A stretch of DNA of 52,279 nt from a virus. Each line of letters begins with the position of its first letter. Positions within the stretch are counted from its first letter, which is position 1. A program made the position numbers and the translations under genes. The stretch lies in the UHGV virus genome UHGV-0197780. One strand, written 5' to 3'. The notes below the pieces were generated by a model, which worked only from the letters and a program-made list of their open reading frames with translations, did not search any database and was not told where the DNA came from. Of this stretch, positions 11,271 to 26,493 are shown piece after piece.

Positions 11271-11286
11271 GGTTTTTCGGGAGGGG

Positions 11287-11320: not shown

Positions 11321-11330
11321 CGTTCGAAAA

Positions 11331-11365
11331 CTAATAATAAAAACGGGAACCACTAGGTTCCCGTT
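11331..11365 (-). terminator. icd transcription terminator
   Basis: On the minus strand a perfect 10-bp stem AACGGGAACC/GGTTCCCGTT with a 4-nt loop is followed by TTTTATTATT. It lies immediately downstream of the icd' stop. Confidence 0.55.
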
Positions 11366-11387
11366 CTGACATAATCTTAGGGGCAGA

Positions 11388-11552
11388 TTACATGTTCGCG
11401 ATAATTGCGTCGCCAAACTCGCTACATTTCAGCAGTTTAGCGCCTTCCATCAGACGTTCGAAGTCATAGGTCACGGTCTTGGCGGCGATAGCGCCTTCCA
11501 TGCCTTTGACGATCAGGTCTGCGGCTTCGAACCACTGCATGTGGCGCAGCAG
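11388..11552 (-). pseudogene. icd: icd 3' fragment (last ~54 codons of isocitrate dehydrogenase). Lambdoid att core at icd.
   Basis: The minus-strand translation [54 protein letters not shown] matches the Icd C-terminus. There is no upstream icd coding sequence. This is the 165-bp fragment type seen at e14/phage 21 att sites. Confidence 0.85.
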
Positions 11553-11694
11553 TAGTTCTCTGCATTGATCTTAATCCTTTGATTTTTTAAAAAAATATGT
11601 TTCTGAACACTTATCTAGAACCATTTTAATGTTAATTCTAACATGCTGATTACATGATAAATTATCCGAGTTTTGATAACCTATTTTCTCTCAA

Positions 11695-13191
11695 TCAGTA
11701 CTCTTTTGTTTGAACCTGCTTGTTCAAATCACGCACTTGTTTTGTTAACTCCTGCACCGTAAGAACAAGATCCGCGATGATGGCCGTATGGTCTACGTTA
11801 AGGATATTGATCTTCTCGCCATCAATTTCTACATCGCCGCTTTGAAAGGTGTAAATCGGGTCAACTTTTTCAGCTTGTTGAGCAATAAATCCACGCCTAC
11901 GGCGTGTTTCGCCTTTCATGTTGAACTCACATACCCCCAGCGCGTTAATACGCCTGGAGGCCCCTTCCTGGGATTCCGTAAAATCCTTTTTCAGCCGCAC
12001 GTCTGAGCCAGTGGTCATAACATCACCTTTAGGGGTGGAGATTGTCCCTCCGGTGTAAAAGAGCCAGGCATCTTTTTGGCCAAAACCGTCCATATACAGT
12101 ACCACCCGGTGGTTGTACCCAACGTATTCTTCAAGGTAGAAACCACCCCACGCTCCAGACGTGTCGCCGTTTCCTCCACGCCCTGTCATGCGGGACCGGA
12201 CTCTGCCACCGGAAACTAACGCGCCGATGGCAGGGGAACCGAAGTCGGTCTGCTGGGACACACAGTCATAGCGACACTGCATCCAGCTGCCGATGTCGGC
12301 CGCTTGCCCCACCCGCAGGTCTCTGTCTACCCCTAGATGACTTCCCTGAACACTAAGTTGATCTGCGGCTGTAGTGATGATGCGTGCGGTATAGTCGTTA
12401 GCACTTTTGTTATGATGAAAATCGATGTACGGAGTGCCCATCGACAGCTCTAACGCCTGGGAATACAGCTTGCCCTTTGCCGTATTATCGAAACCACCAC
12501 CGACAACCAAATCTCCGGGCAACGTCGTCTGGTTATTGGTGCCAATAACGAGGATGTCATCAAAGGTGTCTGCCGGTGATACAGTGGTAGCTCTTGAACG
12601 CTGAACCCTGAACGGTGTTCCCGAGCCAACGGCAATCGTCCCGCCTTGCCCCTGTTTTTTGAGCAGAGCCAGATCTGAATTCTTACCGAGAATAAAACCG
12701 GCATTATCGCTGGTTATAACCTGCGAGCCGTCGAGTTTGTTTCCTCCGGTGAGTTTTGCCAGCGCGTTAAGATCCGATGCTTTCGCCATCCCGGCTATCG
12801 CCGGCACGGTCACCTGCTTTCCTGTGATCGGATCAGTCAGGGTAATATTGCCGCTGCCGGTCAGGGCCATCGACCAGCCCTCCACTACACTACGCCAGAA
12901 TGCAAACGCGCTGGCCAGCTGGTTAGCAAACGACGAGGTGCTGGCGGTTTCAGCGGTAATAATGCCGTAACTGGCACCGGAAAATGCGGTGGTGATATTC
13001 CGGGTCAGCGTCAGTTGCGTGTCGCTGTCCACGGATTTGATCGCATACAGGTCAGCACTACCGCTGCGGTAGACCACTAGAATCGACCCGGGCAGTATCC
13101 CCAGCGCCTCCTGTGACCATTTTGTTGTCGCACCTGTCACCCGTGCCTGCGACGCGGCACCCGTGACGGTACCGACTTCATACATCGCCAT
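11695..13191 (-). CDS. side tail fibre protein with C-terminal S74-type intramolecular chaperone
   Basis: The body is Gly/Ser/Thr-rich fibre sequence. The C-terminus has GSDVRLKKDF…INALGVCEFNMKG, which fits the SDxRxK autocleavage motif of endosialidase-type chaperones. An AGGAGG SD precedes the start. Confidence 0.55.
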   Translation of the reverse strand: MAMYEVGTVTGAASQARVTGATTKWSQEALGILPGSILVVYRSGSADLYAIKSVDSDTQLTLTRNITTAFSGASYGIITAETASTSSFANQLASAFAFWRSVVEGWSMALTGSGNITLTDPITGKQVTVPAIAGMAKASDLNALAKLTGGNKLDGSQVITSDNAGFILGKNSDLALLKKQGQGGTIAVGSGTPFRVQRSRATTVSPADTFDDILVIGTNNQTTLPGDLVVGGGFDNTAKGKLYSQALELSMGTPYIDFHHNKSANDYTARIITTAADQLSVQGSHLGVDRDLRVGQAADIGSWMQCRYDCVSQQTDFGSPAIGALVSGGRVRSRMTGRGGNGDTSGAWGGFYLEEYVGYNHRVVLYMDGFGQKDAWLFYTGGTISTPKGDVMTTGSDVRLKKDFTESQEGASRRINALGVCEFNMKGETRRRRGFIAQQAEKVDPIYTFQSGDVEIDGEKINILNVDHTAIIADLVLTVQELTKQVRDLNKQVQTKEY

Positions 13192-13220: not shown

Positions 13221-13248
13221 GGAAAAAGAAAAGGCCCCTTGCGGGGCC
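13221..13248 (-). terminator. intrinsic terminator between J-like gene and tail fibre gene
   Basis: On the minus strand GGCCCCGCAAGGGGCC is followed by TTTTCTTTTTCC. Confidence 0.5.
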
Positions 13249-13259: not shown

Positions 13260-16200
13260 TCAGGTTGATGAACCGCGAATTACGTTGTTATTGCGCGCGG
13301 CGAAGGCGTCGAATCTTGAGAGGATGGTTAATACCATCTGTCCGTTACGGTCCAGGTAACAGCCATATCGCAGAACAGCGTCGCCAGTACCGGCAGGGAC
13401 GACAAATGACATGTTGTCTACGTTCATTGACTCTTGCGCCGTTAACAGGCGTGTTGCTCCACCTGTTTCATACATAAGCTCAATGCCTAGCTCCATACTG
13501 CCGCCACCAGACGTAGCGCCTGTGCCACGAAGAAGCATTGCATACGACAGATAGCCAGGATTCAGTCCGCCGTCAGCCCCTGGCGCGTAGGACATCCCCG
13601 CTCTGAGTTTCGCGCCGCCGTCGATAGTGATGCTATCCGTCTGGAGGAGTCCACCGCGAATATTGATCACCTGGTCGAAATTCTGCCGCCGGAACCGGGC
13701 CAGCTCAAACCACTGCCATGTAGCCTTCGGCACCTTGCGCGTGCGGTGCTGAGCGATGTTGATCGCAAATGACCCGATGTCGCCCTCGATGTGGTTCGCA
13801 TATACCGTACCCTGGAACCAGCCGTCAGTCGCATAAACCGCACCGCGAACGATCACGTTGTTGAACTGCGAAGAGCCATCCTTAGCGATACGCCAGCCGC
13901 GTGACCCGTCAACAAAGTCATTCGAGCGGATCTCGTGGCCGATCTTCGCGTTCGTGATGGAACCGTCCGCGATTTTGGTTGAGGTCAGGGAACTGTTTTT
14001 GATACGTGCCGTATCGATATACAGCTCATTGCCTTCGGCAACCATCACCGGAACAGCCGTCGCATTATTACGGTTAAACAGCGAGAAGCGGTCAGCGTAG
14101 AGGATCATGTCGCTCGTTTCACCATTGCTGCCCAGCGTAATCCCCGCGCCAACATTCTTCCCGTTAACCGTCTCAACCTTCATCGACCACAGCGAACTCA
14201 CCGTACCATTCACATCCGCCACGGTTTTGGCGGTGTTCTGAACGGAAGCACTGAGATCCCCGACACTGGATGTCAGGGTCGTCTGCTGCGTTGCCAGCGC
14301 CTCCAGTGCCGTTGCATGCGTCTGCTGGGTACTGGTGATACTGGCCACCGATTTAATCGTATTGTCCAGCGTCGTCTGGTTTTTGATGTTGGCGGCCGCC
14401 TGCGCGTCAATCTGCGACTGAAGCGAGGTATTCAGGCTGGCCTGTGTGCTCTGGCTGTCGCTTAGCGTCTTCGCCATGTTATCGACGCGGGAGTTGGCAT
14501 TATCCACTTTCGTGGCCAGTGCCGTCTGCTGCTGCGCCTGGGCGGTGATTTTCCCTTCGGCATCCGTTACGCGAGCCGTCAGACCGCTCACGGCACTCGC
14601 CGTCGCGTCAGAGGCATCCTGTGCCGCTTTCGCATCGGTAACATCCGTGATAACCAGATCGTCGATATACAGCGAATAACCGGGGGTGCCGCTGCCGGAG
14701 GCGCCACGGGTAGAGATCCAGACCACTGCGCGTGTTCTCCCACCCCCGTTGTTACTGGCAATACCCGTAAATTTCACCCACTTATCACGCCCACCAAGAG
14801 CGGCTTCGCTGACAGTGACCGCCGACTGCCAGGAGTTTTGACCGGCAGCATTCAGTGAGTTAATGCCGACCAGCGTTGTCCACCCGGAGGATGGCGCCTG
14901 ATCCGCCGGCATCATAGCCCAGAACTCAAACCGGAACTTCGCATCCTCACGGACTGACTGCCAGCTCCCAAGCTGTTTATCGCTGTTGCCGTTGTTGTTC
15001 GCTCCTCGACTCACCTGCAGGCTCATATTGCCGGTGAATTTCTGAGACGCCACCACAACGGCGGTGCCGCCCCCGCCCAGCACATGACCATCGCTGTAGC
15101 TTTCAAACGTACCGTCAACCCACGGATTAGCTCCCTGAGTACTGATGGTATTGATGCTGCTGGTCAGCGACGTGATACTCTGCGACTGGCTGGTGATAGT
15201 GTTTTCCACCTGGCTTACGCGACCAGTCAGTGAACTCACTGCAGTCGTGTCAGCCTTTTTACTCACCGTATCGTTTGTCGACCTGAGGCTGTTCTCCAGC
15301 GCCGTTATCGAGGAACTCAGGGAGTCAATATTACCCCCCTGGGTCTTCACTGTGTTCTGGAGCGTGGTAATTGCCGACGCGTTCGCATCAGCCTTCATCA
15401 TCACACCGCCGGCTGCACCCAGCCCCATCATTATCCCGTTCACAAATTCGACTGAGGTCGAAATGTGAGCGGTGGCATCTCCACCGGTTGGCGCACGCAG
15501 TTCCAGACCATCGCCAGGCTTCATACCTTTGCGACCAAGGAGAATGTACGCGCCGCGATATGGCAGAGAGTTGACTACTTCGGATGTACCACCAAGAGAT
15601 TCCAGAGCAGACAATAATCTACCTCGGTTGCCAGATGGCTCATCGAATGTCAGGACGCAAACGTAAGTGCCACTAGTCAACGCCCCGATATCAGCCGACA
15701 TCGTGTCGCCATTATTCGCGCTGCCAAAGACATCGTATGTTTTGGAGGTCGCAATCACCGCTGATCCGTCGCTTTGTTTTGCAAAAGTGACCAGCGCCCA
15801 GCTGCGACCAGGGCTAAACAGGTTCTTGCCGCTTTCATCAAAAACCCCAGGAGTTACGCTGTTGCCAAGTCCCCGTGCAGTGACAGTAAACACAGTGCGA
15901 CGGTTCATCGAGGCCTGCAGGCTGGTAATGCTACTGTTCGCCGCAGTTAAATCGCCCCCCTGAGATGTCACCGTGTTCCGGAGATCCTGCAATGCAGAAG
16001 CATCAGCCTTCCTGGCAATGTTGTTCTGAGCTGTCGACAGCCCGTTTTCCAGCGATGTGGTGCGATTACCGATAGAGCTTATGGAAGTGCCCTGCTGATT
16101 CACCGTACTCTGTAACGAAGACAGCGCAGAAGAGTCCGCTTTTTTAGCAACGTTTGCATCAGTTGTCGCCAGACTATTCTTCAGTAAAGAAATATCGCTG

Positions 16201-19200
16201 GACGCCGACGTTATATCCTTGCCCTGCTGAGTCACTTCGTTAGTGAGATCAGCGATCGCCTTGGCGTTCGCGATAGTACCGGCATTTCTGCGGGTCACCT
16301 TAATGTTATAGATCGTGAGCGTAATGGCGTTTCTGCTATAAGGTTGGAGATAGCCAGTTGTCGCGCCAGCCGGGACAGTGATGGTTCCAGTTACGGCTTT
16401 CTTCTCGCCAGCTGCATAATTTAACGCCTCCACGTAGACCGAGTTGTTCGTCAGGCTCGGGCCATCGAAGCGAATACCCCATGCCAGACCGTTGATTGCG
16501 ACACCAGCCAGACAAAGAAGACTAAAGTCTAGAATGTCGCCAGGTGTTACGGAAAACTTAGGTGAAGTTGGCGCCCATGCTGCTGTATCGATCACAGCCG
16601 GATAACCGTCAACAGTTGTTGCATGACCACCCCAACCCTGAGCGTTATTCAACATTGCGGAGTTTGGAACAATGTTGTCGCCCACCGTTAAAGTATTTTC
16701 TAACAACGTTACGCGATTACCCTGGCTCGTCAGAGCGTCGCCCTGAGAAGTCACGGTGTTCTGGAGAGCGTTCAGCGTAGTTGAGTCAGCCTTTTTACTG
16801 ACATTACTGTTTGTCGTGTTCAGGTTGTTCTGCAATGCAGTAATCTGGCTGCTCGCGGAGGTGATGTCTTTACCCTGCTGAGTAACGGTGTTTTGCAGCG
16901 TAGAGATAGCCGAGGCGTTAGCATCAGCCTTCATCATTACACCACCACCAGCGCCCAGACCTGACATGATGCCGTTAACAAACTCAACAGACGTTGAGAT
17001 GTACGAATCGGCCGCGCCGCCAGTAGGCGCACGTAACTCCAGACCGTCACCAGCTTTCATACCCTTGCGACCAAGCAGGATATAGGCGCCGCGATAAGGC
17101 AGAGAGTTCAAGACCTCCGCTGTGCCACCCAAAAGCTCCATTGCGGCTAAAATAGACGCACGGTTTCCGGCCGGCTCATCGTAGGTCAGCACACAAACAT
17201 AAGTGCCATTAGCCAGCGCCGCAATGTCGTCAGACATCGTTTTGCCGTTATTGGCAGAACCAAAAACGTCATACGTCTTGCTGGTGTCGATAGAGGTCGA
17301 GTTATCAGAATTTACCTTAAAGGTAATCATCGTGTAGCTACGACCAGGGCTAACCAGTTTATTTCCTGACTCATCGAACACGCCATCTTTCACGCTCGGA
17401 CCAATGCCTCTGGAGGTCACGGTGAACACGGTGCGGCGATTGATTGACGCCTGAAGGTTAGCGATGCTGCTGTTAGATGCCGAAATATCCTTGCCCTGTT
17501 GGGTCACGGTATTCTGCAGACTAGATAGCGCCGTCGCGTCAGCTTTCTTTGCAACGTTGGCATTGGTGGTGCTCAGGTTGTTCTGCAGGCTTGTAATGCT
17601 GCTTGAGGCTGAAGCAATGTCTTTGCCCTGCTGGGTAACCGTATTTTGCAGTGTCTGGAGAGCTGCGGCGTCCGCTTTTTTCGCGACGTTCGCGTTGGTC
17701 GTGTCCAGATTGTTTTTCAGATCCGTAATGCTGGTGGACTGCGACGCAATATCTTTACCCTGCTGGGTTACAGTATTCTGGAGAGAAGACAATGCGGAGG
17801 CGTTGGCGTCGATTTTGACACTATCTGTCACATCGATGACATAGAAATCATCAAAGCAACGACTCCCGGCTGTCAAACCGTTACTCAGCGTAACCGGGAG
17901 CTTGGCTGTCTCCGTGGCCTTCCAGCGACCGGAAATCAGCGTCCAGTCGGAACCGATCGTCCCGCTATTGTACGGTCGCTCAAACACCGGCTGACCAGCG
18001 GAGTTGCTGATCCGCAGCTTGTTGTTACCTGCTCCGTTATCAGTGGTCGCTCCGAGATCCTTAACCCATACCCCGATTTCATACGTCCGACCCTGTACAA
18101 AGCTTACATACTGTCCCGGTGACACATAACCAACACCAACCCTCAGCGCTCGTGTCCCACCATGTGGAGTGGAGGTCTCAACCACACTGGCTGCCGCTGA
18201 CTGTCCGATATAACCATCCAGTCCTCGCTCAAACGAGGGATTCACGACCAGGTTACCCGGTATCTTCCCGCTGGCATCGATATCTGCCGCGACCTGCGAG
18301 AGGCTGTTCGACAGGTTCGTCAGCGAATTGCTCTGGCTCTCCAGCGTTTTGCCCTGCTGCGTCACTTTCGTGTCGAGCGTAGCCAGCGCAGTCGCATCGG
18401 CTTTCTGCGCCAGCGCTTTATCGGTATTCGCCAGATTTCCGGTCAGCTTCGTGATGGCGCTGTTCGCAGCCGTCAGGTCATTGCCCAGCTGTGTGACGGT
18501 ATTGGTCAAATTCTGCACCGCTGTCGCATCAGCCTTTTTGGCCACTGCGGCATTGGTGGTTGCCAGCCCGTTTTCCAGCTGGGTTGTCCGGTTGCCGGTC
18601 GAGGTCAGCAGATTACCCTGTTGAGTCACGGTGGTGGTCAGGGAGTCAACCGCCGCCGCCGTGGCATCCGCAGTATCCTGAACCTTTTGCGCCGCTGTCA
18701 CATTTCGCATATGCCAGTCCGTAACGAACCATACGGTGCCGAATGGGCTGGACTGGTTAATTTGCAGGAATGGACGGAAGAAGCCGCGATCGACAATCCC
18801 CTGAGTAATTTTGAATCGCCAGGTTACTCGCTGCCATGTGGCCGACGCCTTGCGGTTGCCGCCGGATGACAGAGGCGCGCCCACGCTGCCGCTTGGCCTT
18901 GTTGCGGTTCCGAGATACAGGTTGAAATCAGCGGAGCCGGTACCACACGCGACGAGAGCAGACATTTCATAGACATCCCCCAATGTCGCCGGAATAGCAG
19001 CAAAATTGGGGTGATGGTCGCGAGCCGCAATGCGTGCAACATAAGCGTATGGGCAATTGGCTGGCACGCCCTCAGACGAGCTGGAAACCACAGTGAAGCC
19101 CATCTGACTAAACTCTGGGTCAAATGTCGGGTTGCTAATCAAATCGCCACTTGTCGCATTCCCTGCGCGTACAGATGAATTAAGCGCAGTGATACTGCTA

Positions 19201-22200
19201 TTCGCAGAGGATAAGCCCGATTCTGTTTGATCGACGCGCCCGGACAACACGCTTAAAGCGCTCTGATCAGCTTTTTTACTGACGTTGTTATTGGTCGTTG
19301 CCAGGTCATTTGTCAGTTTGGTGATGCTGTTACCCTGACTGGTGATCTGGTCACCCTGTTGGGAGACGGTCGAGTCCAGTGTCGAAATCGCATTGGCATT
19401 AGCGTCTGCTGTACTTTGCGCATTGTAGGCATCAGTCACTTCGGTAATGACCAGGTCATCAATGAGGAATGAGTTACCCGCCTTAACGCTGCTAACGTTA
19501 GGAATAGAAATCCTCACCATTGCCTGCTTAATACCGCTCTTTGTTGATTTCAGGTAACCAGAAACCTTCGTCCATTGAGCTGTAGACAGATCTTTCGCCG
19601 CTCTGGTTACTGCTGGCCACTGCCAGGAGTTGTCCTGATACTGGAGCGATAAGCCGACGGAAATCTGCACGTTCTCGGCCATAGCGGTACTCTTGGCATC
19701 CAGCTTAACCCAGCATTCCATATAGAAGACTGCGTTATCGCGAACCTGGAATCCGCTGAAAATGTGGGTATCAGTGTTGTCAGTTGCATTGGCATTGTAG
19801 TCATTCGGACGCGTCACACGAATGCATTTATTGCCGCCATGCGAGTCGTCAGTGGTCACGATGGCACGGTTATTCGCCAGATTGTGGCCAACCGCGTAGC
19901 TTTCAAAAGTGCCATCAGGAAGCAGATTAGCGCCGCGTTTGGATTGCTGGCTCAGAGAGCTGCTGAGCGACGTAATGTTGCTGTTCGCCGCCGTCAGACC
20001 GGACTCAGTCTTCTCCACGCGTCCGGTTAGCGAGTTCATCGCCGTCTGATCCGCTTTGCTGGCCACATTCGCGTCTGTCTGCGTCAGCGCATTCCGGAGC
20101 TGGGTGATGCTCTGCGAATTGCTGACCACATCATTGCCAATCTGGCTGACATTCGAGCTGAGTACGCCGGCTGCGTTTGCCAGCGCGGAAACACCGAGAC
20201 CGGAGTACATCTCAGCAACCTTGTCTGACAGCTTCAGGCCCAGGTTGATATACGCCTGGCCGGTCCACTGATTCACCAGAAACTCAACGGTATTCCAGCC
20301 GACTTTCAGTTCAAAACTGCCGGTAGTCCAGCTGGCATTCCCCCAGGCAACCTGAACGCCATTTACAAATACAGCGCCGGTATCATCAAAAATCCTGTTA
20401 CCGGGCGCCATTGTGATGGTGGTATCGGCGGCCACTTTCACCTGGCAGGAATACAGCGCGATCAGATAGCTGCCGGCGGATGTAAAGTCCAGTTTGGCCG
20501 CGTCGGACACCTCATCCACGACCACGGGCGCCACGGCGCGAATATCGCTGAATGACGGGACTGTCCCGGCATTAGCCAGCTGCACAGGATAGATCCGACG
20601 GGACCAGCTATTCGGCTGGCCATTGACCAGCTGATTCGACAGACTGGTGATGCTGTCAGTATTGCTTCGAATATCCTGGCCGTTTTGCTCTACCTGCTGC
20701 GTTAAGGCAGTGACCGCAGCCGCTTCGGCTTTCTTCGCCAGCGCGGCATTTGTCGTGCCCAAATCGCTCGTCAGTTTCGTGATGGACTGACCTTGGCTGG
20801 TTATCCTGTCGCCCTGCTGGGTAACCGTAGACTCCAGCCCGCTCAACGCCTCATTCGTACCAGCCAGGCCCGTTTCCGTCTGGCCCACCCGGTTAGTGAG
20901 TGATGTTAACGCGGCTCCCTGCGATGTCAGCGTGGCACCCTGTTGCTCAACTTTCTGCGTCAGGGACGTCAGCGCGGCTGCATCGGCTTTTTTCCCGAGG
21001 CTGGTTTCCAGGCCACCGATACGGCTCGCCTGCGCGCGCTGCTCTGTCGTCAGAGAACTCAGTTCACCAGAAACAGCAGCTTTGTTGTCGTTAAACTGCG
21101 TCTGCAGGGACTCTCTGGCCTTAACTTCCGCCGAGATGGCGGTAACGCGTGCGGTTTTTTCCTGGTACAGCAGCCCGGAGGTGACTTTCTCCAGATCGCT
21201 CCCATCATAGGAGCCACGCATCTGCGCCGCCAACGTGCTGCGTGCCTGCGCTTCGGCAGTCAGCGCGTTACTCAGCGTACTGCGCACATCCTGCAAAGCC
21301 GCCGTACTGGCGCCGGGTGCTGGCCGGCCAACGGCGATCCAGTCGAATTCGATAAAGTTGCTGGCATCCTGCTGGTTCGTCAGGTCCAGGCGAATACGAT
21401 CAATGTTCCCTGTCCACGGAATATCACGCACAGTCAGGGTTGCCACCCCATCGGCATATTCCGGCTCAGCAACAATGTATCGCTTCGTGTTATTGAAGTT
21501 TTCGCCGGCAGACACCCAGCGGATCTCACCCGCCCAGACTGGTTTACCGGTTTTACGAAAGCGCAGCATGATGAAGCGGTACGCCGCACCATCGACAGCC
21601 AGTCCGCCAGGAGAGGTAATGTACGGATCGGTGGCACTGTCCGCCGGGCGTAACCAGCCATCCTGGGACACACCCGGTACGCCGGCGCTGCCGGTCCAGC
21701 CCTCGGTCGTCTGATTGTTGAAATGCCAGATAACCTGCGAATCGAACTGGATATTAGCGCCGGCAGCGAGGCTGGACATTTCCCGCGCCAGATTCTCATC
21801 GGCAGTCTTCATCACCTGAGTCAGGCTCTCGATACTAGCCTCAATCCCCTGCGTTGCCGCCAGCAGTTCATCAGCGGCCTGTGCCGCCTTCGCGTTAACA
21901 TCGGCGATACGATCCGCGGTCTCCTGCTTCACTGCATTGGTCAGCGTGGTGTTAACCTGAGACAGCGACTGCTTCAGGCCATTTTCGGCAGTCTTTATCT
22001 GCGCATTCAATGCGGCATCGCCGTCGGCCAGCGTTTTGCTGACCCTGGCAATCTCCAGGTCGATGGTGGCGTTGATTTCCGCAGCCGTATCGGTGACTGA
22101 CTGTCTTACCTGGGTGATGCTGTCGGTCAACGACTTGTTCACAGTTGCGATCTGCTTGTTCGCATCTGCGACGGCGGATTTTGCCTCCTGAACGCCTTTG

Positions 22201-24947
22201 TTTGCCTGAGCCAGACCAGAATCGAGAGCCTCATTGACCGAGGTGATCTCATCCGTGATGGTTTTATTCACGGCGGAGATCTTCCCGTCAACATCAGCCG
22301 TGATGCTTTTCGCCGATGCATCAATATCCTGGCTGACCTGCTTCGCCTGGTCTTCGGCTTCCTTACGCAGAGCTTCAGCGGTCTGCTCCAGTTCCTGCTG
22401 CGTATTGCGGATACCTTCCTGTGTTTCGCTAATGGTGCGCTGCGTTTCCTCCCAGGCAGCCGTATCCTTGATCGCGTCGGTCAGGTTTTCGTAGTAGTCA
22501 TCAAAGTTATCGCTGGCCATCCCCTGGACCCAGCCGGTCCACGGGCTTTCATTGCCAAGACGATCCACAAGGCGCGCCCGATACCAGAATTCTGCGCCCA
22601 TACTGAGGCCCATCTGCTGATAGCTTTTCCCCGGATAGGCCACGTCTGATAACGGCATTGGCGCACTGCCGTCCTGGTTTTTGCTGTACTGCAGTTCCGT
22701 GCGCAGCGTATCCCCGGAGCCGGTCGGGAACTCCCAGCTAACCTGGACTCCATGAACCAGCGAACGGGTTGCCAGCGCCAGCGGTGCCAGCGGCTCGCCG
22801 ACCTTGCCGGTCAGGGTTTTCTCTTCGGAATACGCCCAGCCGCTCGAGATCTCCGCCGCATTGATCGCGCGGACGCGAACCAGGTAACGACCGGCATAAA
22901 TGCCGCTGACCTCAAACGAGGTGGTCGAGCTGCGCGGCACATTAATCCAGTTCCCGTCGTTACGGCGCCACTGCGCCTCGTAGGCAATAGCGCCGCTGAC
23001 CGCTGACCAGTTAACCTGCATCGTTTCGACGCTGATCCCCTGATTCACGACCGAGCGGGATGTGATGACAATATCGTCAGGAGGTGACTGGTTGCCCGCC
23101 GGCAATACGCTAACCGGGCGCTGATCGATAATCGCGCCGGTATCGATGCGGGCGAATTTATCCGGGTCATGTGACACGCCGGTGATCGTGAGGGTGGCAT
23201 CGCCGTTCTCTTTTACCCCTGTGACCCGGTACTGCTGCAGAAAGAGGTCATTAGATTCTACGGCCCAGACGCATTCCCGTTCTGGCGTCTCACTGTAAGC
23301 CGTTGTGACCGTAATCTGCCGGCGTCCGTTAACGGCCTGGATGGTCCGGCTCTGTGAGATCCCGGATGGCAGGTTTAGCTGGAGGCGGTCGCCAGGTTTG
23401 GCATCCACATCACGATCCAGCGTAATCACCCGGCCATTCATCGCGCTGATCCGCCCGCCGTTGACCCGTCCGGCCAGCAACTCATCCGCCAGGGCAATGA
23501 TATAACCGGGTTGAGGAATGCGCCCGTCCAGCCCCACATCAAACTCAACGACCCGGTCTTTGTTGTTGGTCAGTATGCCCCACAGCCCCTTACGGTGGGC
23601 TTCGCTCTGGCGCGTACAGCCAATCGCGGTCATTTCGAGCTGGTTAAAACTGTAGCGGGAAACCAGTTCCGGGATAAACGCCGGCTCCATTGCATCAGCA
23701 TAAGCATTATCCGGATCAGACCAGGAAACCAGGGCGTTGGTGTACCGAACCTGGCTGCTGCTGCTCGAATAACGGGGTTTGCCGACAATATTGGCGCGCG
23801 TATAGGTAAAATCGACATCACGCGGCATATCAGCCTGCACAACAATCTGCTCACCGTTCCAGCAGGTCATGCCCCGGAAAATGGCGGCAAAGTCTCGCAG
23901 CACGGTGTAAGCATCGTTGCGTTCCTGGACGTAGACGTTACAGGTATAGCGCGGCTCCATGCCGTCACCACCGCGCCCGTCAGGAACCAGCTGATCGCAG
24001 TACTGTGCAATCTGGTACAGCGTCCATTTCGAAATATTGGCGCTGCTCAGACGATTACCGAGACCAAAACGGTCAGCTGTAACAATGTCGTAATAGATCC
24101 AGGCCGGGTTATCCGTCCAGGCCCATTTAAACCCGCCGGTCCAGACGCCGGTATATTCGCGGGTTTCCGGATTGTAGTTATCCGGCACACGAATCACGCG
24201 CCCACGCGGCTCACAGGAAATTTGCGGAATGGAGCCATTAAACTGGCTGGAGTCGAACTCGATATAAAGCAGCGCGGTGTTGGGATAACGCAGCTTCGCG
24301 TCAATCACTTCGGTATAGCTCTGCAGCGTCATCACGTCGCCAACTTTGACACTGTTTGCATCCGGAGAGATTTTACGCAGGCGTAGCGTCCAGGTACTGC
24401 CGGCATGGGGCAGATCAATACGATGGCTCCGCTCATAACCGGAGGTGGTTTTACCCGTGACAGCGGTTTCCAGCACCGTCTGCCAGGCGCCGCCGTCGGT
24501 CTGCAGGTCAATCGCATACTTGACGGTATTGCCCACCACGTCGCCATCATCTTCCTGTTTCATCAGGGACGGCCATTTCAGGCGGACACGAACGGCAGAA
24601 AGCTGGGTATTAGTAAAGGTATGGGTCCAGGCTGTCTTGCTGGAAACTTCCGTTCCTACACTGATTTCATTTTCAGTACCGGGAATACCCTGAATATAAG
24701 TCTGAGCCTGCGTGCCGGGGCGAAATTCCCAGGACACGCCACTGAAGTTTTGCGAACCATCAGCATTTTCAAGCGGGGTGCCATCAAGATAAATATCTTT
24801 CCCGGTTAAACCACCTGCAAATTCACCCTCACCTAATGCGAGCAGAATTTTGGCTTTCGCAACAGACTGTAAATCATCCGGCTGTTCCGTCGGTGTACGC
24901 TGCTTTGAGCCGCCACCCTTGCGCCCTTTAATTATGTTATTTGCCAT
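13260..24947 (-). CDS. giant host-specificity / central tail fibre protein (lambda J-like N- and C-terminal regions with a ~2800-aa insertion)
   Basis: The first ~1100 aa align with lambda J (…CYPNTAL…, VPDNYNP.TR.Y.G.W.G, QYCDQ.VPDG.GG.EPR.TCN…). The C-terminal ~250 aa resemble the J receptor-binding end. The middle holds more than 20 copies of a ~45-aa TVTQQGKDI…NL.TTNANVAKKAD repeat. There are at least 5 NP(S/T)FE…DDLVITDVTD beta-sandwich CBM-like modules. A ~300-aa module is duplicated at ~80% identity, visible at nucleotide level (15300-15600 vs 16850-17150). Confidence 0.8.
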   Translation of the reverse strand: MANNIIKGRKGGGSKQRTPTEQPDDLQSVAKAKILLALGEGEFAGGLTGKDIYLDGTPLENADGSQNFSGVSWEFRPGTQAQTYIQGIPGTENEISVGTEVSSKTAWTHTFTNTQLSAVRVRLKWPSLMKQEDDGDVVGNTVKYAIDLQTDGGAWQTVLETAVTGKTTSGYERSHRIDLPHAGSTWTLRLRKISPDANSVKVGDVMTLQSYTEVIDAKLRYPNTALLYIEFDSSQFNGSIPQISCEPRGRVIRVPDNYNPETREYTGVWTGGFKWAWTDNPAWIYYDIVTADRFGLGNRLSSANISKWTLYQIAQYCDQLVPDGRGGDGMEPRYTCNVYVQERNDAYTVLRDFAAIFRGMTCWNGEQIVVQADMPRDVDFTYTRANIVGKPRYSSSSSQVRYTNALVSWSDPDNAYADAMEPAFIPELVSRYSFNQLEMTAIGCTRQSEAHRKGLWGILTNNKDRVVEFDVGLDGRIPQPGYIIALADELLAGRVNGGRISAMNGRVITLDRDVDAKPGDRLQLNLPSGISQSRTIQAVNGRRQITVTTAYSETPERECVWAVESNDLFLQQYRVTGVKENGDATLTITGVSHDPDKFARIDTGAIIDQRPVSVLPAGNQSPPDDIVITSRSVVNQGISVETMQVNWSAVSGAIAYEAQWRRNDGNWINVPRSSTTSFEVSGIYAGRYLVRVRAINAAEISSGWAYSEEKTLTGKVGEPLAPLALATRSLVHGVQVSWEFPTGSGDTLRTELQYSKNQDGSAPMPLSDVAYPGKSYQQMGLSMGAEFWYRARLVDRLGNESPWTGWVQGMASDNFDDYYENLTDAIKDTAAWEETQRTISETQEGIRNTQQELEQTAEALRKEAEDQAKQVSQDIDASAKSITADVDGKISAVNKTITDEITSVNEALDSGLAQANKGVQEAKSAVADANKQIATVNKSLTDSITQVRQSVTDTAAEINATIDLEIARVSKTLADGDAALNAQIKTAENGLKQSLSQVNTTLTNAVKQETADRIADVNAKAAQAADELLAATQGIEASIESLTQVMKTADENLAREMSSLAAGANIQFDSQVIWHFNNQTTEGWTGSAGVPGVSQDGWLRPADSATDPYITSPGGLAVDGAAYRFIMLRFRKTGKPVWAGEIRWVSAGENFNNTKRYIVAEPEYADGVATLTVRDIPWTGNIDRIRLDLTNQQDASNFIEFDWIAVGRPAPGASTAALQDVRSTLSNALTAEAQARSTLAAQMRGSYDGSDLEKVTSGLLYQEKTARVTAISAEVKARESLQTQFNDNKAAVSGELSSLTTEQRAQASRIGGLETSLGKKADAAALTSLTQKVEQQGATLTSQGAALTSLTNRVGQTETGLAGTNEALSGLESTVTQQGDRITSQGQSITKLTSDLGTTNAALAKKAEAAAVTALTQQVEQNGQDIRSNTDSITSLSNQLVNGQPNSWSRRIYPVQLANAGTVPSFSDIRAVAPVVVDEVSDAAKLDFTSAGSYLIALYSCQVKVAADTTITMAPGNRIFDDTGAVFVNGVQVAWGNASWTTGSFELKVGWNTVEFLVNQWTGQAYINLGLKLSDKVAEMYSGLGVSALANAAGVLSSNVSQIGNDVVSNSQSITQLRNALTQTDANVASKADQTAMNSLTGRVEKTESGLTAANSNITSLSSSLSQQSKRGANLLPDGTFESYAVGHNLANNRAIVTTDDSHGGNKCIRVTRPNDYNANATDNTDTHIFSGFQVRDNAVFYMECWVKLDAKSTAMAENVQISVGLSLQYQDNSWQWPAVTRAAKDLSTAQWTKVSGYLKSTKSGIKQAMVRISIPNVSSVKAGNSFLIDDLVITEVTDAYNAQSTADANANAISTLDSTVSQQGDQITSQGNSITKLTNDLATTNNNVSKKADQSALSVLSGRVDQTESGLSSANSSITALNSSVRAGNATSGDLISNPTFDPEFSQMGFTVVSSSSEGVPANCPYAYVARIAARDHHPNFAAIPATLGDVYEMSALVACGTGSADFNLYLGTATRPSGSVGAPLSSGGNRKASATWQRVTWRFKITQGIVDRGFFRPFLQINQSSPFGTVWFVTDWHMRNVTAAQKVQDTADATAAAVDSLTTTVTQQGNLLTSTGNRTTQLENGLATTNAAVAKKADATAVQNLTNTVTQLGNDLTAANSAITKLTGNLANTDKALAQKADATALATLDTKVTQQGKTLESQSNSLTNLSNSLSQVAADIDASGKIPGNLVVNPSFERGLDGYIGQSAAASVVETSTPHGGTRALRVGVGYVSPGQYVSFVQGRTYEIGVWVKDLGATTDNGAGNNKLRISNSAGQPVFERPYNSGTIGSDWTLISGRWKATETAKLPVTLSNGLTAGSRCFDDFYVIDVTDSVKIDANASALSSLQNTVTQQGKDIASQSTSITDLKNNLDTTNANVAKKADAAALQTLQNTVTQQGKDIASASSSITSLQNNLSTTNANVAKKADATALSSLQNTVTQQGKDISASNSSIANLQASINRRTVFTVTSRGIGPSVKDGVFDESGNKLVSPGRSYTMITFKVNSDNSTSIDTSKTYDVFGSANNGKTMSDDIAALANGTYVCVLTYDEPAGNRASILAAMELLGGTAEVLNSLPYRGAYILLGRKGMKAGDGLELRAPTGGAADSYISTSVEFVNGIMSGLGAGGGVMMKADANASAISTLQNTVTQQGKDITSASSQITALQNNLNTTNSNVSKKADSTTLNALQNTVTSQGDALTSQGNRVTLLENTLTVGDNIVPNSAMLNNAQGWGGHATTVDGYPAVIDTAAWAPTSPKFSVTPGDILDFSLLCLAGVAINGLAWGIRFDGPSLTNNSVYVEALNYAAGEKKAVTGTITVPAGATTGYLQPYSRNAITLTIYNIKVTRRNAGTIANAKAIADLTNEVTQQGKDITSASSDISLLKNSLATTDANVAKKADSSALSSLQSTVNQQGTSISSIGNRTTSLENGLSTAQNNIARKADASALQDLRNTVTSQGGDLTAANSSITSLQASMNRRTVFTVTARGLGNSVTPGVFDESGKNLFSPGRSWALVTFAKQSDGSAVIATSKTYDVFGSANNGDTMSADIGALTSGTYVCVLTFDEPSGNRGRLLSALESLGGTSEVVNSLPYRGAYILLGRKGMKPGDGLELRAPTGGDATAHISTSVEFVNGIMMGLGAAGGVMMKADANASAITTLQNTVKTQGGNIDSLSSSITALENSLRSTNDTVSKKADTTAVSSLTGRVSQVENTITSQSQSITSLTSSINTISTQGANPWVDGTFESYSDGHVLGGGGTAVVVASQKFTGNMSLQVSRGANNNGNSDKQLGSWQSVREDAKFRFEFWAMMPADQAPSSGWTTLVGINSLNAAGQNSWQSAVTVSEAALGGRDKWVKFTGIASNNGGGRTRAVVWISTRGASGSGTPGYSLYIDDLVITDVTDAKAAQDASDATASAVSGLTARVTDAEGKITAQAQQQTALATKVDNANSRVDNMAKTLSDSQSTQASLNTSLQSQIDAQAAANIKNQTTLDNTIKSVASITSTQQTHATALEALATQQTTLTSSVGDLSASVQNTAKTVADVNGTVSSLWSMKVETVNGKNVGAGITLGSNGETSDMILYADRFSLFNRNNATAVPVMVAEGNELYIDTARIKNSSLTSTKIADGSITNAKIGHEIRSNDFVDGSRGWRIAKDGSSQFNNVIVRGAVYATDGWFQGTVYANHIEGDIGSFAINIAQHRTRKVPKATWQWFELARFRRQNFDQVINIRGGLLQTDSITIDGGAKLRAGMSYAPGADGGLNPGYLSYAMLLRGTGATSGGGSMELGIELMYETGGATRLLTAQESMNVDNMSFVVPAGTGDAVLRYGCYLDRNGQMVLTILSRFDAFAARNNNVIRGSST

Positions 24948-24955: not shown

Positions 24956-24981
24956 CATAAAAAAAGCCACCGCAAGGTGGC
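24956..24981 (-). terminator. terminator-like hairpin between tail assembly I and the J-like gene
   Basis: On the minus strand GCCACCTTGCGGTGGC is followed by TTTTTTT, 10 nt before the J ATG. Confidence 0.4.
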
Positions 24982-25009
24982 CTGAATTGGATGGTTTACT
25001 GAATAAAAA

Positions 25010-26447: not shown

Positions 26448-26493
26448 TCGCATGCTCCTGTAAATTGAATTAGGAGCATAATATACAGGCACC

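What the first reader, a model, noticed from the sequence alone, without database searches (positions are those of the whole stretch)
13260..24947. 3895-aa J-like central tail fibre: lambda J ends separated by ~2.8 kb of repeats, CBM-like modules and a duplicated 300-aa domain
The N-terminal ~1100 aa and C-terminal ~250 aa are recognisably gpJ. In between are more than 20 tandem ~45-aa repeats (TVTQQGKDI…TTNANVAKKAD) and at least five NP(S/T)FE…DDLVITDVTD beta-sandwich, lectin/CBM4_9-like modules. A ~300-aa module (…GVFDESG…LPYRGAYILLGRKGMK.GDGLELRAPTGG…) is present twice at ~80% nucleotide identity. This would make an exceptionally long, multi-lectin central fibre, over three times the length of lambda J. 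The internal repeats are prone to recombinational length variation. Intrinsic terminators flank the gene on both sides.
Basis: seen in the sequence. Interest (0 to 1): 0.6.

Follow-up and report, generated by a model that had tools for sequence, protein, structure and literature searches.

The report
Giant lectin-studded phage tail fibre
This is a real, intact 3,895-residue version of the lambda J tail-tip protein from a Klebsiella temperate phage, in which a long coiled-coil stalk carrying nine sugar-binding-like modules is inserted at one point of J; the gene class has been known since phage phiKO2 (2004), so it is a well-dissected new member and not a new kind of thing.

Summary
ORF 13260-24947 (-) is uninterrupted (3,895 aa), and the identical protein is encoded on at least 24 independent public contigs, so it is not an assembly artefact. 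It is a TipJ/lambda-J family central tail fibre. Residues 12-844 align with lambda J 4-840 and residues 3564-3662 with lambda J 840-941, so about 2,700 aa are inserted at a single point. The insert is not one tandem array. It holds 20-21 copies of a 44-aa repeat (four hendecads, predicted helical) in short blocks that alternate with nine globular modules. Five modules are CBM4/9/16/22-like, two are FAM3/ILEI ("GG") fold, one is probably PA14-like (lectin-like) and one resembles the megatron carbohydrate-binding domain. The "duplicated 300-aa domain" is real, but it is 68% identical in protein and only 64% in DNA, with synonymous sites saturated, so it is old and not recombinogenic. Relatives are phiKO2 gp21 (3,433 aa), telomere phages, SSU5-like phage-plasmids and a 48-kb sewage-derived phage. 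Their J proteins span 2,978-4,294 aa and reshuffle the same pool of modules, with breakpoints in the repeat blocks. This is a known kind: phrog_2589 and RefSeq "TipJ family" proteins. Glycan binding, trimer geometry and the receptor are inferred and remain untested.

The parts
22413..24947 (-). aa 1-845: J hub / tip-attachment core (includes FNIII-A_GpJ at 91-217 and FN3 domains)
   Evidence: BLASTP to lambda J 4-840 gives 31% identity, E=2e-116. Pfam PF24801 E=1.9e-47. PDB matches: F2-pyocin fibre, 9l9p_S, 23gd_D, lambda J 8iyk.
21753..22412 (-). aa 846-1065: first coiled-coil segment (CC1)
   Evidence: No self-repeat hits. The hydrophobic Fourier peak lies at period 3.6-3.67. This segment varies among relatives, 44-100% identity.
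21273..21752 (-). aa 1066-1225: module M0, similar to the megatron carbohydrate-binding domain
   Evidence: phmmer E=3.1e-10 to 8gtc_M residues 493-641. The authors of that structure name residues 482-629 the carbohydrate-binding domain (PMC10276861).
20988..21272 (-). aa 1226-1320: linker L1, helical by sequence periodicity
   Evidence: Conserved in all relatives. Fourier peak at period 3.6.
20625..20987 (-). aa 1321-1441: repeat block R1 (3 copies of the 44-aa repeat)
   Evidence: Repeat HMM domains at 1321-1357, 1366-1406 and 1407-1441.
20193..20624 (-). aa 1442-1585: module M1, lectin-like (probably PA14-like) beta-sandwich
   Evidence: The family profile A3 hits PDB lectins 6t0q/6t1d/6kbj at E~3e-7, RTX protein 36gk at 1e-4 and Lap adhesin 6m8m at 0.026. 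Pfam Cadherin-like beta sandwich is hit by 9 of 17 members and PA14 by 1 of 17. The domain occurs in 55 cluster representatives of giant proteins.
19935..20192 (-). aa 1586-1671: repeat block R2 (2 copies)
   Evidence: Mosaic breakpoints with relatives fall at R2+45 and R2+74.
19413..19934 (-). aa 1672-1845: module M2, CBM_4_9-like
   Evidence: Pfam PF02018 E=1.7e-4, 22.4 bits, just below the gathering score of 25.9. hhalign of the M2/M6 family against the M4 family gives 96.7% probability.
19149..19412 (-). aa 1846-1933: repeat block R3 (2 copies)
   Evidence: Breakpoint at R3+46.
18678..19148 (-). aa 1934-2090: module M3, CBM_4_9-like (distant)
   Evidence: hhalign against the M4 family gives 88.5% probability over 143 columns. 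There is no direct Pfam hit.
18285..18677 (-). aa 2091-2221: repeat block R4 (3 copies)
   Evidence: Fourier peak at period 3.67.
17814..18284 (-). aa 2222-2378: module M4, CBM_4_9 / CBM16-like
   Evidence: Pfam PF02018 28.4 bits, above the gathering score of 25.9, E=2.3e-6. PDB CBM16 entries 2zew/2zex/3oea at E~1.5e-4.
17439..17813 (-). aa 2379-2503: repeat block R5 (3 copies, best conserved)
   Evidence: Repeat HMM E=1e-18 to 1e-26. Predicted as a continuous helix in the I1 model.
16932..17438 (-). aa 2504-2672: module I1, FAM3/ILEI ('GG') fold, copy 1
   Evidence: Pfam PF15711 E=1.5e-10. AF2 model pLDDT 76.5. The top 20 Foldseek PDB hits are all FAM3B, FAM3C, TMEM2 or the POMGnT1 stem domain, with E from 6e-6 to 6e-4, and the next hit is at 0.16.
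16677..16931 (-). aa 2673-2757: repeat block R6 (2 copies)
   Evidence: Helical in both AF2 models.
16284..16676 (-). aa 2758-2888: module M5, CBM4/16/22-fold beta-jelly-roll
   Evidence: AF2 pLDDT 82.4, core above 90. Foldseek hits CBM16 2zey/2zex, CBM4 1gui and CBM22 4xuo at E~1e-7, probability 1.00.
15903..16283 (-). aa 2889-3015: repeat block R7 (3 copies)
   Evidence: Breakpoint at R7+59/60 shared by three relatives.
15396..15902 (-). aa 3016-3184: module I2, FAM3/ILEI fold, copy 2
   Evidence: Second stretch of PF15711. 67-87% aa identity to I1 in windows. 92-93% identical to the single copy in Kp4865-4, 48ST307 and the SSU5-like plasmid.
15141..15395 (-). aa 3185-3269: repeat block R8 (2 copies)
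   Evidence: Breakpoints at R8+35 and R8+43/45.
14613..15140 (-). aa 3270-3445: module M6, CBM_4_9-like (same family as M2)
   Evidence: Clusters with M2 in module family F0. That family matches the M4 family at 96.7% by hhalign.
14259..14612 (-). aa 3446-3563: distal coiled coil CC2 (heptad periodicity)
   Evidence: Fourier peak at period 3.5. One weak repeat match at 3448-3488.
13818..14258 (-). aa 3564-3710: J tail-tip fibre domain (Phage_Tail_Tip / DUF1983)
   Evidence: Pfam PF09327 E=6.6e-35. Aligns to lambda J 840-941, and to 23gd_D, 25vf and 8xcj.
13263..13817 (-). aa 3711-3895: distal C-terminal domain, putative receptor-binding domain
   Evidence: No Pfam or PDB sequence match beyond about residue 3727. 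Covered by phrog_5269. 98-100% conserved in KpLi5, CRKP-1 and Kp4865-4, but replaced in phiKO2, NAR688 and the SSU5-like element.
24964..24983 (-). terminator-like hairpin plus T-run, ending 12 nt before the J start codon
   Evidence: Consensus scan, sequence, fold -15.6 kcal/mol. Conserved at the same offset in 14 loci, and annotated as a putative terminator in phiKO2.
13233..13248 (.). GC-rich hairpin with T-runs on both strands, between the J stop codon and the side-fibre gene
   Evidence: phiKO2 has a 'putative bidirectional' terminator at the equivalent place.
11695..13191 (-). downstream side tail fibre gene (498 aa) with a C-terminal Peptidase_S74 intramolecular chaperone
   Evidence: Pfam PF13884. 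phrog_1980 tail fiber protein, E=3e-116.

Best explanation
The gene encodes the central tail fibre / tip-attachment protein (TipJ, lambda gpJ family) of a lambdoid temperate Klebsiella siphophage, in the giant form first seen as phiKO2 gp21.

Shown:
- The first ~845 residues are homologous to the part of lambda J that builds the tail-tip hub.
- Residues 3564-~3727 are the J tail-tip fibre domain.
- About 2,700 residues are inserted between them at a single point.
- The insert consists of helical segments (CC1, L1, eight blocks of a 44-residue repeat with 11/3 periodicity, CC2) alternating with nine globular modules.
- Every module resembles a carbohydrate-binding domain. Five are CBM4/9/16/22-like, two have the FAM3/ILEI/POMGnT1-stem fold, one is probably PA14-like, and one resembles the megatron carbohydrate-binding domain.
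- No enzymatic or depolymerase domain was detected.

Inferred:
- As in lambda, three copies form the hub.
- The three chains continue as a long, straight, parallel coiled coil. If all ~1,280 helical residues are collinear it would be of the order of 190 nm long.
- This stalk would display up to 27 lectin-like modules laterally.
- These modules would give multivalent, reversible binding to capsule and/or O-antigen polysaccharide. That would let a phage with no recognisable depolymerase hold on to and thread through the Klebsiella surface layer.
- The distal tip domain and the variable last ~170-185 residues would then engage the final, probably outer-membrane, receptor and trigger ejection as in lambda.

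Evolution:
- The modules form a shared cassette pool. They are exchanged between integrative prophages, telomere (N15/phiKO2-type) phages, SSU5-like phage-plasmids and ~48-kb sewage phages.
- The junctions of these exchanges lie in the repeat blocks.
- Within one gene the repeat copies are anciently diverged at the DNA level and therefore stable.
For: 1. Intact ORF.
2. Homology to lambda J at both ends with one insertion point. Pfam FNIII-A_GpJ and Phage_Tail_Tip. Solved J-like proteins as best PDB matches. phrog_2589 'tail protein' at 4,364 bits and phrog_31 'central tail fiber J'.
3. Gene order is tape measure-M-L-K-(moron)-I-J-side fibre.
4. Repeat map. Periodicity of 11/3. Repeats are predicted as continuous 30-50-residue helices flanking the domains in two AF2 models.
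5. Module folds: M4 by Pfam CBM_4_9 above the gathering score and PDB CBM16. M2, M6 and M3 by hhalign at 96.7% and 88.5%. M5 by Foldseek to CBM16/4/22 at E~1e-7. I1 and I2 by Pfam ILEI and an exclusive FAM3/POMGnT1/TMEM2 fold match. M0 by the megatron carbohydrate-binding domain at E=3e-10. M1 by PDB lectins at E~3e-7.
6. Relatives span 2,978-4,294 aa and reorder nine module families. Breakpoints lie in the repeat blocks, 8 of 10 distinct internal breakpoints.
7. The exact protein is found in at least 24 contigs.
8. NAR688, which has a related giant J, makes virions with a 133-nm tail, a central tail spike and multiple long fibres (PMC12042878).
Against: - No glycan binding has been measured for any module. 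Fold similarity to CBMs does not prove a sugar site, and ligand-binding residues were not examined.
- The trimeric parallel coiled coil and the lateral display of modules are extrapolated from lambda J and from sequence periodicity. Only monomer models of two short segments were made.
- The M1 assignment is weak. The best matches cover only ~40-90 profile positions.
- M3 and M6 rest on profile-profile links, and M2 is below Pfam's threshold.
- The NAR688 micrograph description mentions a 'central tail spike' plus long fibres, not an obvious ~190-nm central fibre.
- The receptor is unknown.
- The absence of a depolymerase rests only on the lack of hits within J. Only domain scans were run on the side fibre.
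Confidence: 0.8

Rival explanations
1. The giant ORF is an assembly artefact (repeat collapse or expansion), or a fusion of separate J and fibre genes created by sequencing error.
For: The gene is repetitive at the protein level. Homologue searches return mostly fragments below 600 aa, labelled 'partial', on 1-2 kb contigs, which shows that such genes often break short-read assemblies. In Kpn74 and 48ST307 the gene is split into several ORFs.
Against: The identical 3,895-aa protein is encoded on at least 24 contigs from NCBI, ENA and Logan assemblies, including a 5.14-Mb chromosomal contig. No exact repeat of 20 nt or more exists in the gene. Complete-genome relatives carry intact genes of 3,433-4,294 aa.
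Confidence: 0.02
2. The globular modules are not lectins. On this reading they are inert structural beads or spacers (like Ig/FN3 decorations) whose role is to set fibre length and stiffness or to shield the stalk. Host recognition would rest only on the C-terminal domain and the side fibre.
For: No binding data exist. CBM-like jelly rolls and FAM3-like domains also serve structural roles, for example T4-type gp35 hinge connectors with the same fold as I1/I2. The proximal modules M0 and M1 are conserved among relatives, while host range presumably differs.
Against: All nine modules fall into four different fold classes whose characterised members bind carbohydrate. The number and order of modules turn over quickly between otherwise 96-98% identical phages. 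That is the pattern expected for specificity determinants and not for spacers.
Confidence: 0.12
3. The insert carries a cryptic enzymatic activity (a depolymerase or esterase acting on capsule), so the fibre would degrade the capsule and not merely bind it.
For: CBMs are usually appended to glycoside hydrolases. The Foldseek lists for M5 include tailspike proteins with enzymatic domains (CBA120 TSP4, K2-2 TSP), though the match is only to their beta-sandwich parts.
Against: No catalytic family was detected by Pfam or PHROGs in any segment. There is no pectate-lyase beta-helix, SGNH or GH domain. Every inter-repeat segment is only 130-180 aa and is accounted for by a binding-module fold.
Confidence: 0.04

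Closest known systems
Klebsiella phage phiKO2 gp21 (3,433 aa, 'similar to lambda J protein'), with its close relatives in telomere phages NAR688, 020009, KpLi5 and 48ST307, and the RefSeq 'TipJ family phage tail tip protein' WP_181726858.1 (4,234 aa)
   Same: The family is the same (phrog_2589). The N-terminal ~1,660 aa and the C-terminal ~670 aa are 95-99% identical in DNA to KpLi5 and CRKP-1. The repeat is the same and the modules come from the same pool. The position after M-L-K-I is the same, and so are the flanking terminator-like hairpins.
   Different: The number and order of modules differ. The window has two FAM3/ILEI modules and an M5 module, which KpLi5, CRKP-1, NAR688 and phiKO2 lack. 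It lacks module families F4 and F6, which they have. The carrier here is an integrase-bearing lambdoid phage, not a linear plasmid prophage.
Bacteriophage lambda gpJ (tip attachment protein J, 1,132 aa; PDB 8iyk, 8xcg-8xck)
   Same: The hub region (31% identity over ~860 aa) and the tail-tip fibre domain (27% over ~100 aa) are homologous. The gene context is the same.
   Different: Lambda has nothing between residues ~840 and ~840 where this protein has ~2,700 aa. Lambda's LamB-binding C-terminal domain has no detectable counterpart here.
Giant 'phage tail tip fiber proteins' of SSU5-like ~110-kb phage-plasmids (e.g. WP_134736790.1, 4,052 aa) and of ~48-kb Klebsiella siphophages (RCIP0100, 3,294 aa)
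   Same: They share the beads-on-a-string design, the same 44-aa repeat and the same modules. M2, M3 and I2 are 92-97% identical to the SSU5-like protein. I1 is ~96% identical in DNA to RCIP0100-type phages.
   Different: Their hub domains are only ~32% identical to this one, so the similarity comes from exchanged cassettes and not from common descent of the whole gene.
Carbohydrate-binding-module decorations of other siphophage tail tips: the R4C/RcGTA megatron carbohydrate-binding domain, and (from general knowledge) the CBM-bearing Dit/Tal extensions of lactococcal phages
   Same: Lectin-like modules are grafted onto conserved tail-tip scaffold proteins for adhesion to polysaccharide. M0 is a sequence homologue of the megatron carbohydrate-binding domain.
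   Different: Those proteins carry one or a few modules inserted in the hub. Here nine modules are strung along a repeat-built coiled-coil stalk.
FAM3/ILEI/'GG' domain proteins: FAM3B PANDER, FAM3C ILEI, the POMGnT1 stem domain, TMEM2, and T4-type gp35 hinge connectors
   Same: I1 and I2 match Pfam PF15711 and have this fold. The fold is already found in many phage tail proteins.
   Different: Sequence identity is only 14-21%. Here the domain is embedded between coiled-coil repeats of a J protein. Whether it binds sugar like the POMGnT1 stem domain is untested.

Membership tests
TipJ / lambda gpJ central tail fibre family | N-terminal hub region homologous to lambda J (~residues 1-840), including the FNIII-A_GpJ domain | tested here: met
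   BLASTP E=2e-116, 31% identity. PF24801 160.9 bits against a cutoff of 27. PDB J-like proteins at E=1e-123 to 3e-279.
TipJ / lambda gpJ central tail fibre family | Tail-tip fibre domain (Pfam Phage_Tail_Tip / DUF1983) C-terminal to the hub | tested here: met
   PF09327 107-120 bits against a cutoff of 22. Aligns to lambda J 840-941 and to 23gd_D, 25vf and 8xcj.
TipJ / lambda gpJ central tail fibre family | Encoded after the tape measure and the M, L, K and I tail-tip genes | tested here: met
   ORF map. I = phrog_32. Identical order in annotated relatives and in independent contigs with Phage_tail_L and NLPC_P60 upstream.
TipJ / lambda gpJ central tail fibre family | Trimeric virion component at the tail tip | not testable with these tools
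   Needs virion proteomics or cryo-EM. The only indirect support is the NAR688 micrograph description (PMC12042878).
TipJ / lambda gpJ central tail fibre family | Lambda-type C-terminal receptor-binding domain (LamB-binding). This is a feature of lambda itself and is not required for family membership. | tested here: not met
   No similarity beyond about residue 3727 to lambda J or to any PDB chain.
Giant phiKO2-gp21-type J (phrog_2589) | Match along the whole length to the 3,686-position family profile | tested here: met
   4,364 bits in 11 stretches. Megablast at 95-99% to both ends of the relatives' genes.
CBM_4_9 (Pfam PF02018) / CBM4-16-22 beta-jelly-roll | Sequence match at or above Pfam's gathering score | tested here: inconclusive
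   M4 is met (28.4 vs 25.9 bits). M2 is below (22.4 bits, E=1.7e-4). M3, M5 and M6 have no direct hit. M2/M6 and M3 link to M4 by hhalign at 96.7% and 88.5%.
CBM_4_9 (Pfam PF02018) / CBM4-16-22 beta-jelly-roll | Beta-jelly-roll fold superposable on solved CBM4/16/22 modules | tested here: met
   Tested for M5 only. AF2 pLDDT 82. Foldseek E~1e-7, probability 1.00, TM (target-normalised) 0.54-0.66.
CBM_4_9 (Pfam PF02018) / CBM4-16-22 beta-jelly-roll | Demonstrated carbohydrate binding, or a conserved binding cleft | not tested
ILEI / FAM3 (Pfam PF15711) | Sequence match above the gathering score, and the FAM3 fold | tested here: met
   72.3 bits for two stretches and 41.9 bits for I1 alone, against a cutoff of 27. 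The top 20 Foldseek PDB hits are all FAM3B/C, POMGnT1 stem or TMEM2.
PA14-like lectin domains | Significant match to PA14, or to solved PA14-type lectins | tested here: inconclusive
   The M1 family profile hits PDB lectins at E~3e-7, but over ~40 positions. RTX protein at 1e-4 over ~90 positions and Lap adhesin at 0.026. Pfam PA14 is hit by only 1 of 17 members, at E=0.028. No model was built.
Hendecad (11/3) coiled coil | Hydrophobic periodicity of 3.67 and helical conformation | tested here: met
   Fourier peak at 3.67 in R4, R5, R7 and CC1. Invariant hydrophobic positions at 6, 9, 13, 20, 27, 30, 34 and 41. Continuous helices in the AF2 models. The oligomeric state is not testable.
Intrinsic (Rho-independent) terminators | GC-rich hairpin followed by a U-run, in an intergenic position | tested here: met
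   The upstream site is conserved in 14 loci. Termination activity itself is not testable, and the folding z-scores are modest (-1.8 and -1.5).

The most novel reading that the evidence does not exclude
The 44-residue hendecad repeat may be more than a spacer. It could be a dedicated, in-frame 'splice site' for cassette exchange. Each lectin module would travel with flanking repeat units, so that any two phages co-resident in Klebsiella (integrative, telomeric, SSU5-like plasmid or lytic) could swap or add glycan-binding beads without disrupting the coiled-coil register.

The resulting long multi-lectin stalk would be the way depolymerase-poor temperate Klebsiella phages cope with capsule diversity. 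This would be a binding-based alternative to the enzyme-based strategy of virulent phages.
Probability: 0.3. Interest if true: 0.6.

Novelty: new member of a known kind. Interest (0 to 1): 0.3.

Why it matters
Host range in Klebsiella phages is usually explained by capsule depolymerases, yet temperate phages often lack them.

A central fibre carrying up to 27 lectin-like modules per virion is a plausible non-enzymatic route to capsule and LPS recognition. The modules come from a pool shared among prophages, telomere phages and large phage-plasmids. Such a fibre would also be a natural scaffold for engineering host range by swapping cassettes at the repeat linkers.

Practically, the work shows three things. 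These giant genes are genuine. Their repeats are stable at the DNA level. The fragmented 'hypothetical protein, partial' entries that litter Klebsiella draft genomes are pieces of such fibres.

None of this changes the classification. It is a J protein of a kind recognised since phiKO2.

Tried and rejected
- Self-BLASTP of the whole protein returned only the identity hit. I replaced it with chopped 60-aa queries.
- A whole-protein search of the 5.8-billion-protein index timed out.
- Searches with I1, the R6-M5-R7 segment and M1 returned almost only fragments below 600 aa. They could not give a length distribution of full-length homologues. I took that from annotated genomes instead.
- The phiKO2 genome paper (PMC355964) is not in the library. 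What it says about gp21 is known to me only through the GenBank annotation.
- The M1 homologue set usable for structure prediction was too shallow (66-95% identity). I built no M1 model and used a profile from the representative library instead. The PA14 idea stays a lead.
- phmmer of I1 against PDB sequences gave only FAM3A at E=1.2. The assignment rests on the Pfam profile and the predicted fold.
- I tested whether codon usage between repeat copies is actively diversified to avoid recombination. It is not: 0.396 observed vs 0.389 random. It is simply saturated.
- Literature searches found no study of the architecture of these giant J proteins.
- I considered and rejected an in-situ recent tandem duplication for the ILEI module. 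The two copies have different nearest relatives. I1 matches RCIP0100-type phages at ~96% (DNA), and I2 matches Kp4865-4, 48ST307 and the SSU5-like element at 92-93% (protein).

Full report

The window contains one uninterrupted ORF on the minus strand, 13260-24947, with an ATG start, encoding 3,895 aa. The exact protein sequence is recorded on at least 24 contigs (32 index blocks) from independent NCBI, ENA and Logan assemblies. These include a 5.14-Mb chromosomal contig and a 52,244-bp metagenome contig of nearly the window's length. The gene contains no exact direct repeat of 20 nt or more; the longest is 19 nt, against 12-14 nt in shuffled sequence. Assembly artefact and hidden frameshift are therefore excluded as far as sequence can show.

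**2. What element carries it?**

Megablast places the gene and the adjacent virion module among Klebsiella temperate siphophages. These are ST846-OXA48phi9.1, Kp4865-4 and the linear-plasmid 'telomere' phages NAR688, 020009, KpLi5, 48ST307 and phiKO2.

The gene order is tape measure-M-L-K-(low-GC ORF)-I-J-side fibre. In this window the side-fibre gene is followed by a convergent lambda-type integrase at 10143-11270. The telomere phages have parAB at that position. In chromosomal copies host genes follow instead. The window is therefore an integrative lambdoid phage written in vegetative order, and it shares its virion module with phage-plasmids.

**3. The two J-like ends**

- Residues 12-844 align with lambda J residues 4-840 (31% identity, E=2e-116).
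- Residues 3564-3662 align with lambda J 840-941 (27% identity, E=5e-8).
- Pfam finds FNIII-A_GpJ at 91-217 and Phage_Tail_Tip at 3569-3709.
- The best PDB sequence matches are J-like proteins: F2-pyocin fibre, 9l9p_S, 23gd_D and lambda J.

About 2,720 residues are thus inserted at a single point of the J scaffold, where the chains leave the hub and the central fibre begins. The last ~170 residues match nothing solved and nothing in lambda J. They are 98-100% conserved in some relatives and replaced in others, as expected of a terminal receptor-binding domain. That role is an inference.

**4. Anatomy of the insert**

A dot-plot with chopped queries and a repeat HMM show 20-21 significant copies of a 44-residue repeat. 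The consensus is ANASAISTLQNTVTQQGKDITSASSSITKLENNLATTNANVAKK. The copies lie in eight blocks of 2-3, plus one weak copy in the distal coil. They do not form one tandem array.

Strongly hydrophobic residues are invariant at positions 6, 9, 13, 20, 27, 30, 34 and 41. The Fourier peak is at 3.67 residues, which is 11/3, so each repeat is four hendecads. Two AlphaFold2 models predict the repeats as continuous 30-50-residue helices on both sides of the globular domains. CC1 (846-1065) has similar periodicity. CC2 (3446-3563) is heptad-like.

Nine globular modules lie between the helical segments:

| Module | Residues | Assignment | Evidence |
|---|---|---|---|
| M0 | 1066-1225 | like the megatron carbohydrate-binding domain | sequence homologue of residues 493-641 of roseophage R4C megatron, E=3e-10; the authors name residues 482-629 the carbohydrate-binding domain (PMC10276861) |
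| M1 | 1442-1585 | lectin-like, probably PA14-like | family present in 55 cluster representatives of giant proteins up to 6,542 aa; profile hits solved lectins at E~3e-7 and RTX/Lap adhesin sugar-binding domains; no model built |
| M2 | 1672-1845 | CBM_4_9-like | Pfam 22.4 bits, just below the gathering score of 25.9; family linked to M4 by hhalign at 96.7% |
| M3 | 1934-2090 | CBM_4_9-like (distant) | linked to M4 by hhalign at 88.5% |
| M4 | 2222-2378 | CBM_4_9 / CBM16-like | passes Pfam's gathering score; matches solved CBM16 modules |
| I1 | 2504-2672 | FAM3/ILEI fold | Pfam ILEI; I1 model (pLDDT 76.5); top 20 PDB fold matches all FAM3B, FAM3C, TMEM2 or the carbohydrate-binding stem domain of POMGnT1, then a gap in E-value from 6e-4 to 0.16 |
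| M5 | 2758-2888 | CBM4/16/22 fold | no sequence link; confident model (pLDDT 82); Foldseek to CBM16/CBM4/CBM22 at E~1e-7 |
| I2 | 3016-3184 | FAM3/ILEI fold | second Pfam ILEI stretch; paralogue of I1 |
| M6 | 3270-3445 | CBM_4_9-like | same module family as M2, linked to M4 at 96.7% |

The FAM3/ILEI fold is already common in phage fibre proteins. Examples are the Acinetobacter phage Presley tail protein, Bacillus phage G gp431, T4-type gp35 hinge connectors and several proteins annotated as ILEI-domain proteins. No catalytic domain was found anywhere in the insert.

**5. The duplication and the recombination claim**

The duplicated stretch is 2381-2741 vs 2893-3260. It is 68% identical in protein and 64-67% in DNA.

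Across 55 pairs of repeat units, and across the duplicated module, positions with the same amino acid use the same codon 39.6% of the time. Random synonymous choice with this gene's codon usage would give 38.9%. Synonymous sites are saturated. The copies are old and are kept alike by selection on the protein. There is no sign of recent duplication or gene conversion.

The two ILEI copies also have different nearest relatives. I1 is ~96% identical in DNA to 48-kb phages such as RCIP0100. I2 is 92-93% identical in protein to the copy in Kp4865-4, 48ST307 and an SSU5-like plasmid. They were most likely brought together by recombination between phages.

**6. Comparison with relatives**

Intact J genes in relatives encode:

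| Element | J length (aa) |
|---|---|
| Kp4865-4 | 2,978 |
| RCIP0100 | 3,294 |
| phiKO2 gp21 | 3,433 |
| KpLi5 | 3,792 |
| SSU5-like plasmid | 4,052 |
| CRKP-1 plasmid | 4,234 |
| NAR688 | 4,294 |

The inter-repeat modules of ten such proteins cluster into nine families, and the window has six of them. The proximal part (hub to M1) and the distal part (M6 to the end) are conserved. The middle is reshuffled.

High-identity segments shared with relatives end inside repeat blocks in 8 of 10 distinct internal breakpoints, several of them near the boundary between two repeat units. Repeat blocks make up ~40% of the variable region, so by my own binomial estimate P is about 0.01. This is an estimate only and not a rigorous test. 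Length variation by recombination is therefore real between phages, but it is not expected within this gene.

**7. Flanking signals**

A GC-rich hairpin followed by a T-run ends 12 nt before the start codon (24983-24964). Another lies between the stop codon and the side-fibre gene (13248-13233).

The upstream element is conserved at the same offset in 14 related loci, including phiKO2, whose 2004 annotation calls it a putative terminator. Terminator-like sites are not enriched in the region overall, and activity is untested. If the upstream site is functional, late-operon antitermination would be needed to express J. The site might also lower J output relative to upstream genes. Both points are inferences.

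**8. How it most likely works**

Shown: a J hub, a helical repeat-built stalk, nine carbohydrate-binding-like modules, a J tip domain and a variable terminal domain.

Inferred from lambda J structures and from the periodicity:
- Three chains form the hub and continue as a straight parallel coiled coil.
- About 1,280 helical residues would span roughly 190 nm if collinear.
- The stalk would display up to 27 lectin-like modules.
- These modules would bind capsule and/or O-antigen multivalently and reversibly.
- The tip and terminal domain would then reach an outer-membrane receptor.

For the related phage NAR688, virions were described with a 133-nm tail, a central tail spike and multiple long fibres (PMC12042878). 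This is compatible with the model but does not prove it.

**9. Novelty**

The gene class is known:
- phiKO2 gp21, 'similar to lambda J protein'.
- PHROG family 2589, with a 3,686-position profile.
- RefSeq 'TipJ family phage tail tip protein' of 4,234 aa.
- NCBI names for fragments such as 'carbohydrate binding domain-containing protein' and 'interleukin-like EMT inducer domain-containing protein'.

I found no paper in the library that dissects the architecture. The module inventory, the hendecad nature of the repeat, the saturated synonymous divergence and the placement of breakpoints may therefore be useful detail. They do not make this a new kind of system. It is a new member of a known kind, of modest interest.

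Noticed in passing
window 25620-26492 (-): A low-GC (~43%) 290-aa ORF is wedged between tail genes K and I. It matches phrog_16400 (unknown function). It has a soluble N-terminal part, about three predicted transmembrane stretches and a C-terminal domain. Its position is the same as the 'putative moron' gp19 of phiKO2. It could be a lysogenic-conversion or superinfection-exclusion gene.
   Followed up: partly
window 117-2459 (-): A 780-aa protein combines a SIR2-like domain and a STAND NTPase domain, in a 34-36% GC island. PADLOC matches are weak (ThsA-like SIR2). It looks like a phage-borne anti-phage defence gene.
   Followed up: partly
window 46256-49139 (+): A low-GC pair of genes: a 609-aa AAA_21/AAA_15 ATPase (PADLOC HEC-04 at E=1e-35, also OLD/Gabija/Septu-like) followed by a C5 cytosine DNA methyltransferase. 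It may be another defence or anti-restriction cassette.
   Followed up: partly
window 10143-13191, and loci L012-L017: The window has the vegetative order J-side fibre-(att)-integrase. In chromosomal copies of the same phage, host genes (ArsR-type HTH) follow the side-fibre gene. An ENA metagenome contig of 52,244 bp carrying the same J is almost the same length as the window. This suggests a circularly closed or permuted complete phage genome.
   Followed up: partly
window 27000-46000: The head and tail module is 95-96% identical both to an integrative prophage (ST846-OXA48phi9.1) and to linear-plasmid telomere phages (NAR688, 48ST307, 020009). The same virion is therefore coupled to two different lysogeny lifestyles.
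   Followed up: partly
window 7726-9864 (+): A 712-aa fusion of an exonuclease VIII (RecE-like) N-terminal region with an Rv2179c-like 3'-5' exoribonuclease domain lies in the recombination/early region.
   Followed up: no
proteins P0001-P0117: Database homologues of the insert are overwhelmingly fragments below 600 aa, labelled 'partial', on 0.5-2 kb contigs from Klebsiella draft genomes. There are also some from Acinetobacter baumannii, Pantoea and Pseudomonas. These fibre genes routinely shatter short-read assemblies, probably because several co-resident elements share cassettes.
   Followed up: partly
proteins P0126, P0141, P0150, P0161: Other giant phage-tail-like proteins of 2,800-6,500 aa, from unidentified sources, use the same construction principle. 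Short helical 'TVTQQGN.ITSQ'-type repeats alternate with M1-like, CBM-like and ILEI-like modules. The design therefore extends well beyond Klebsiella phages.
   Followed up: no
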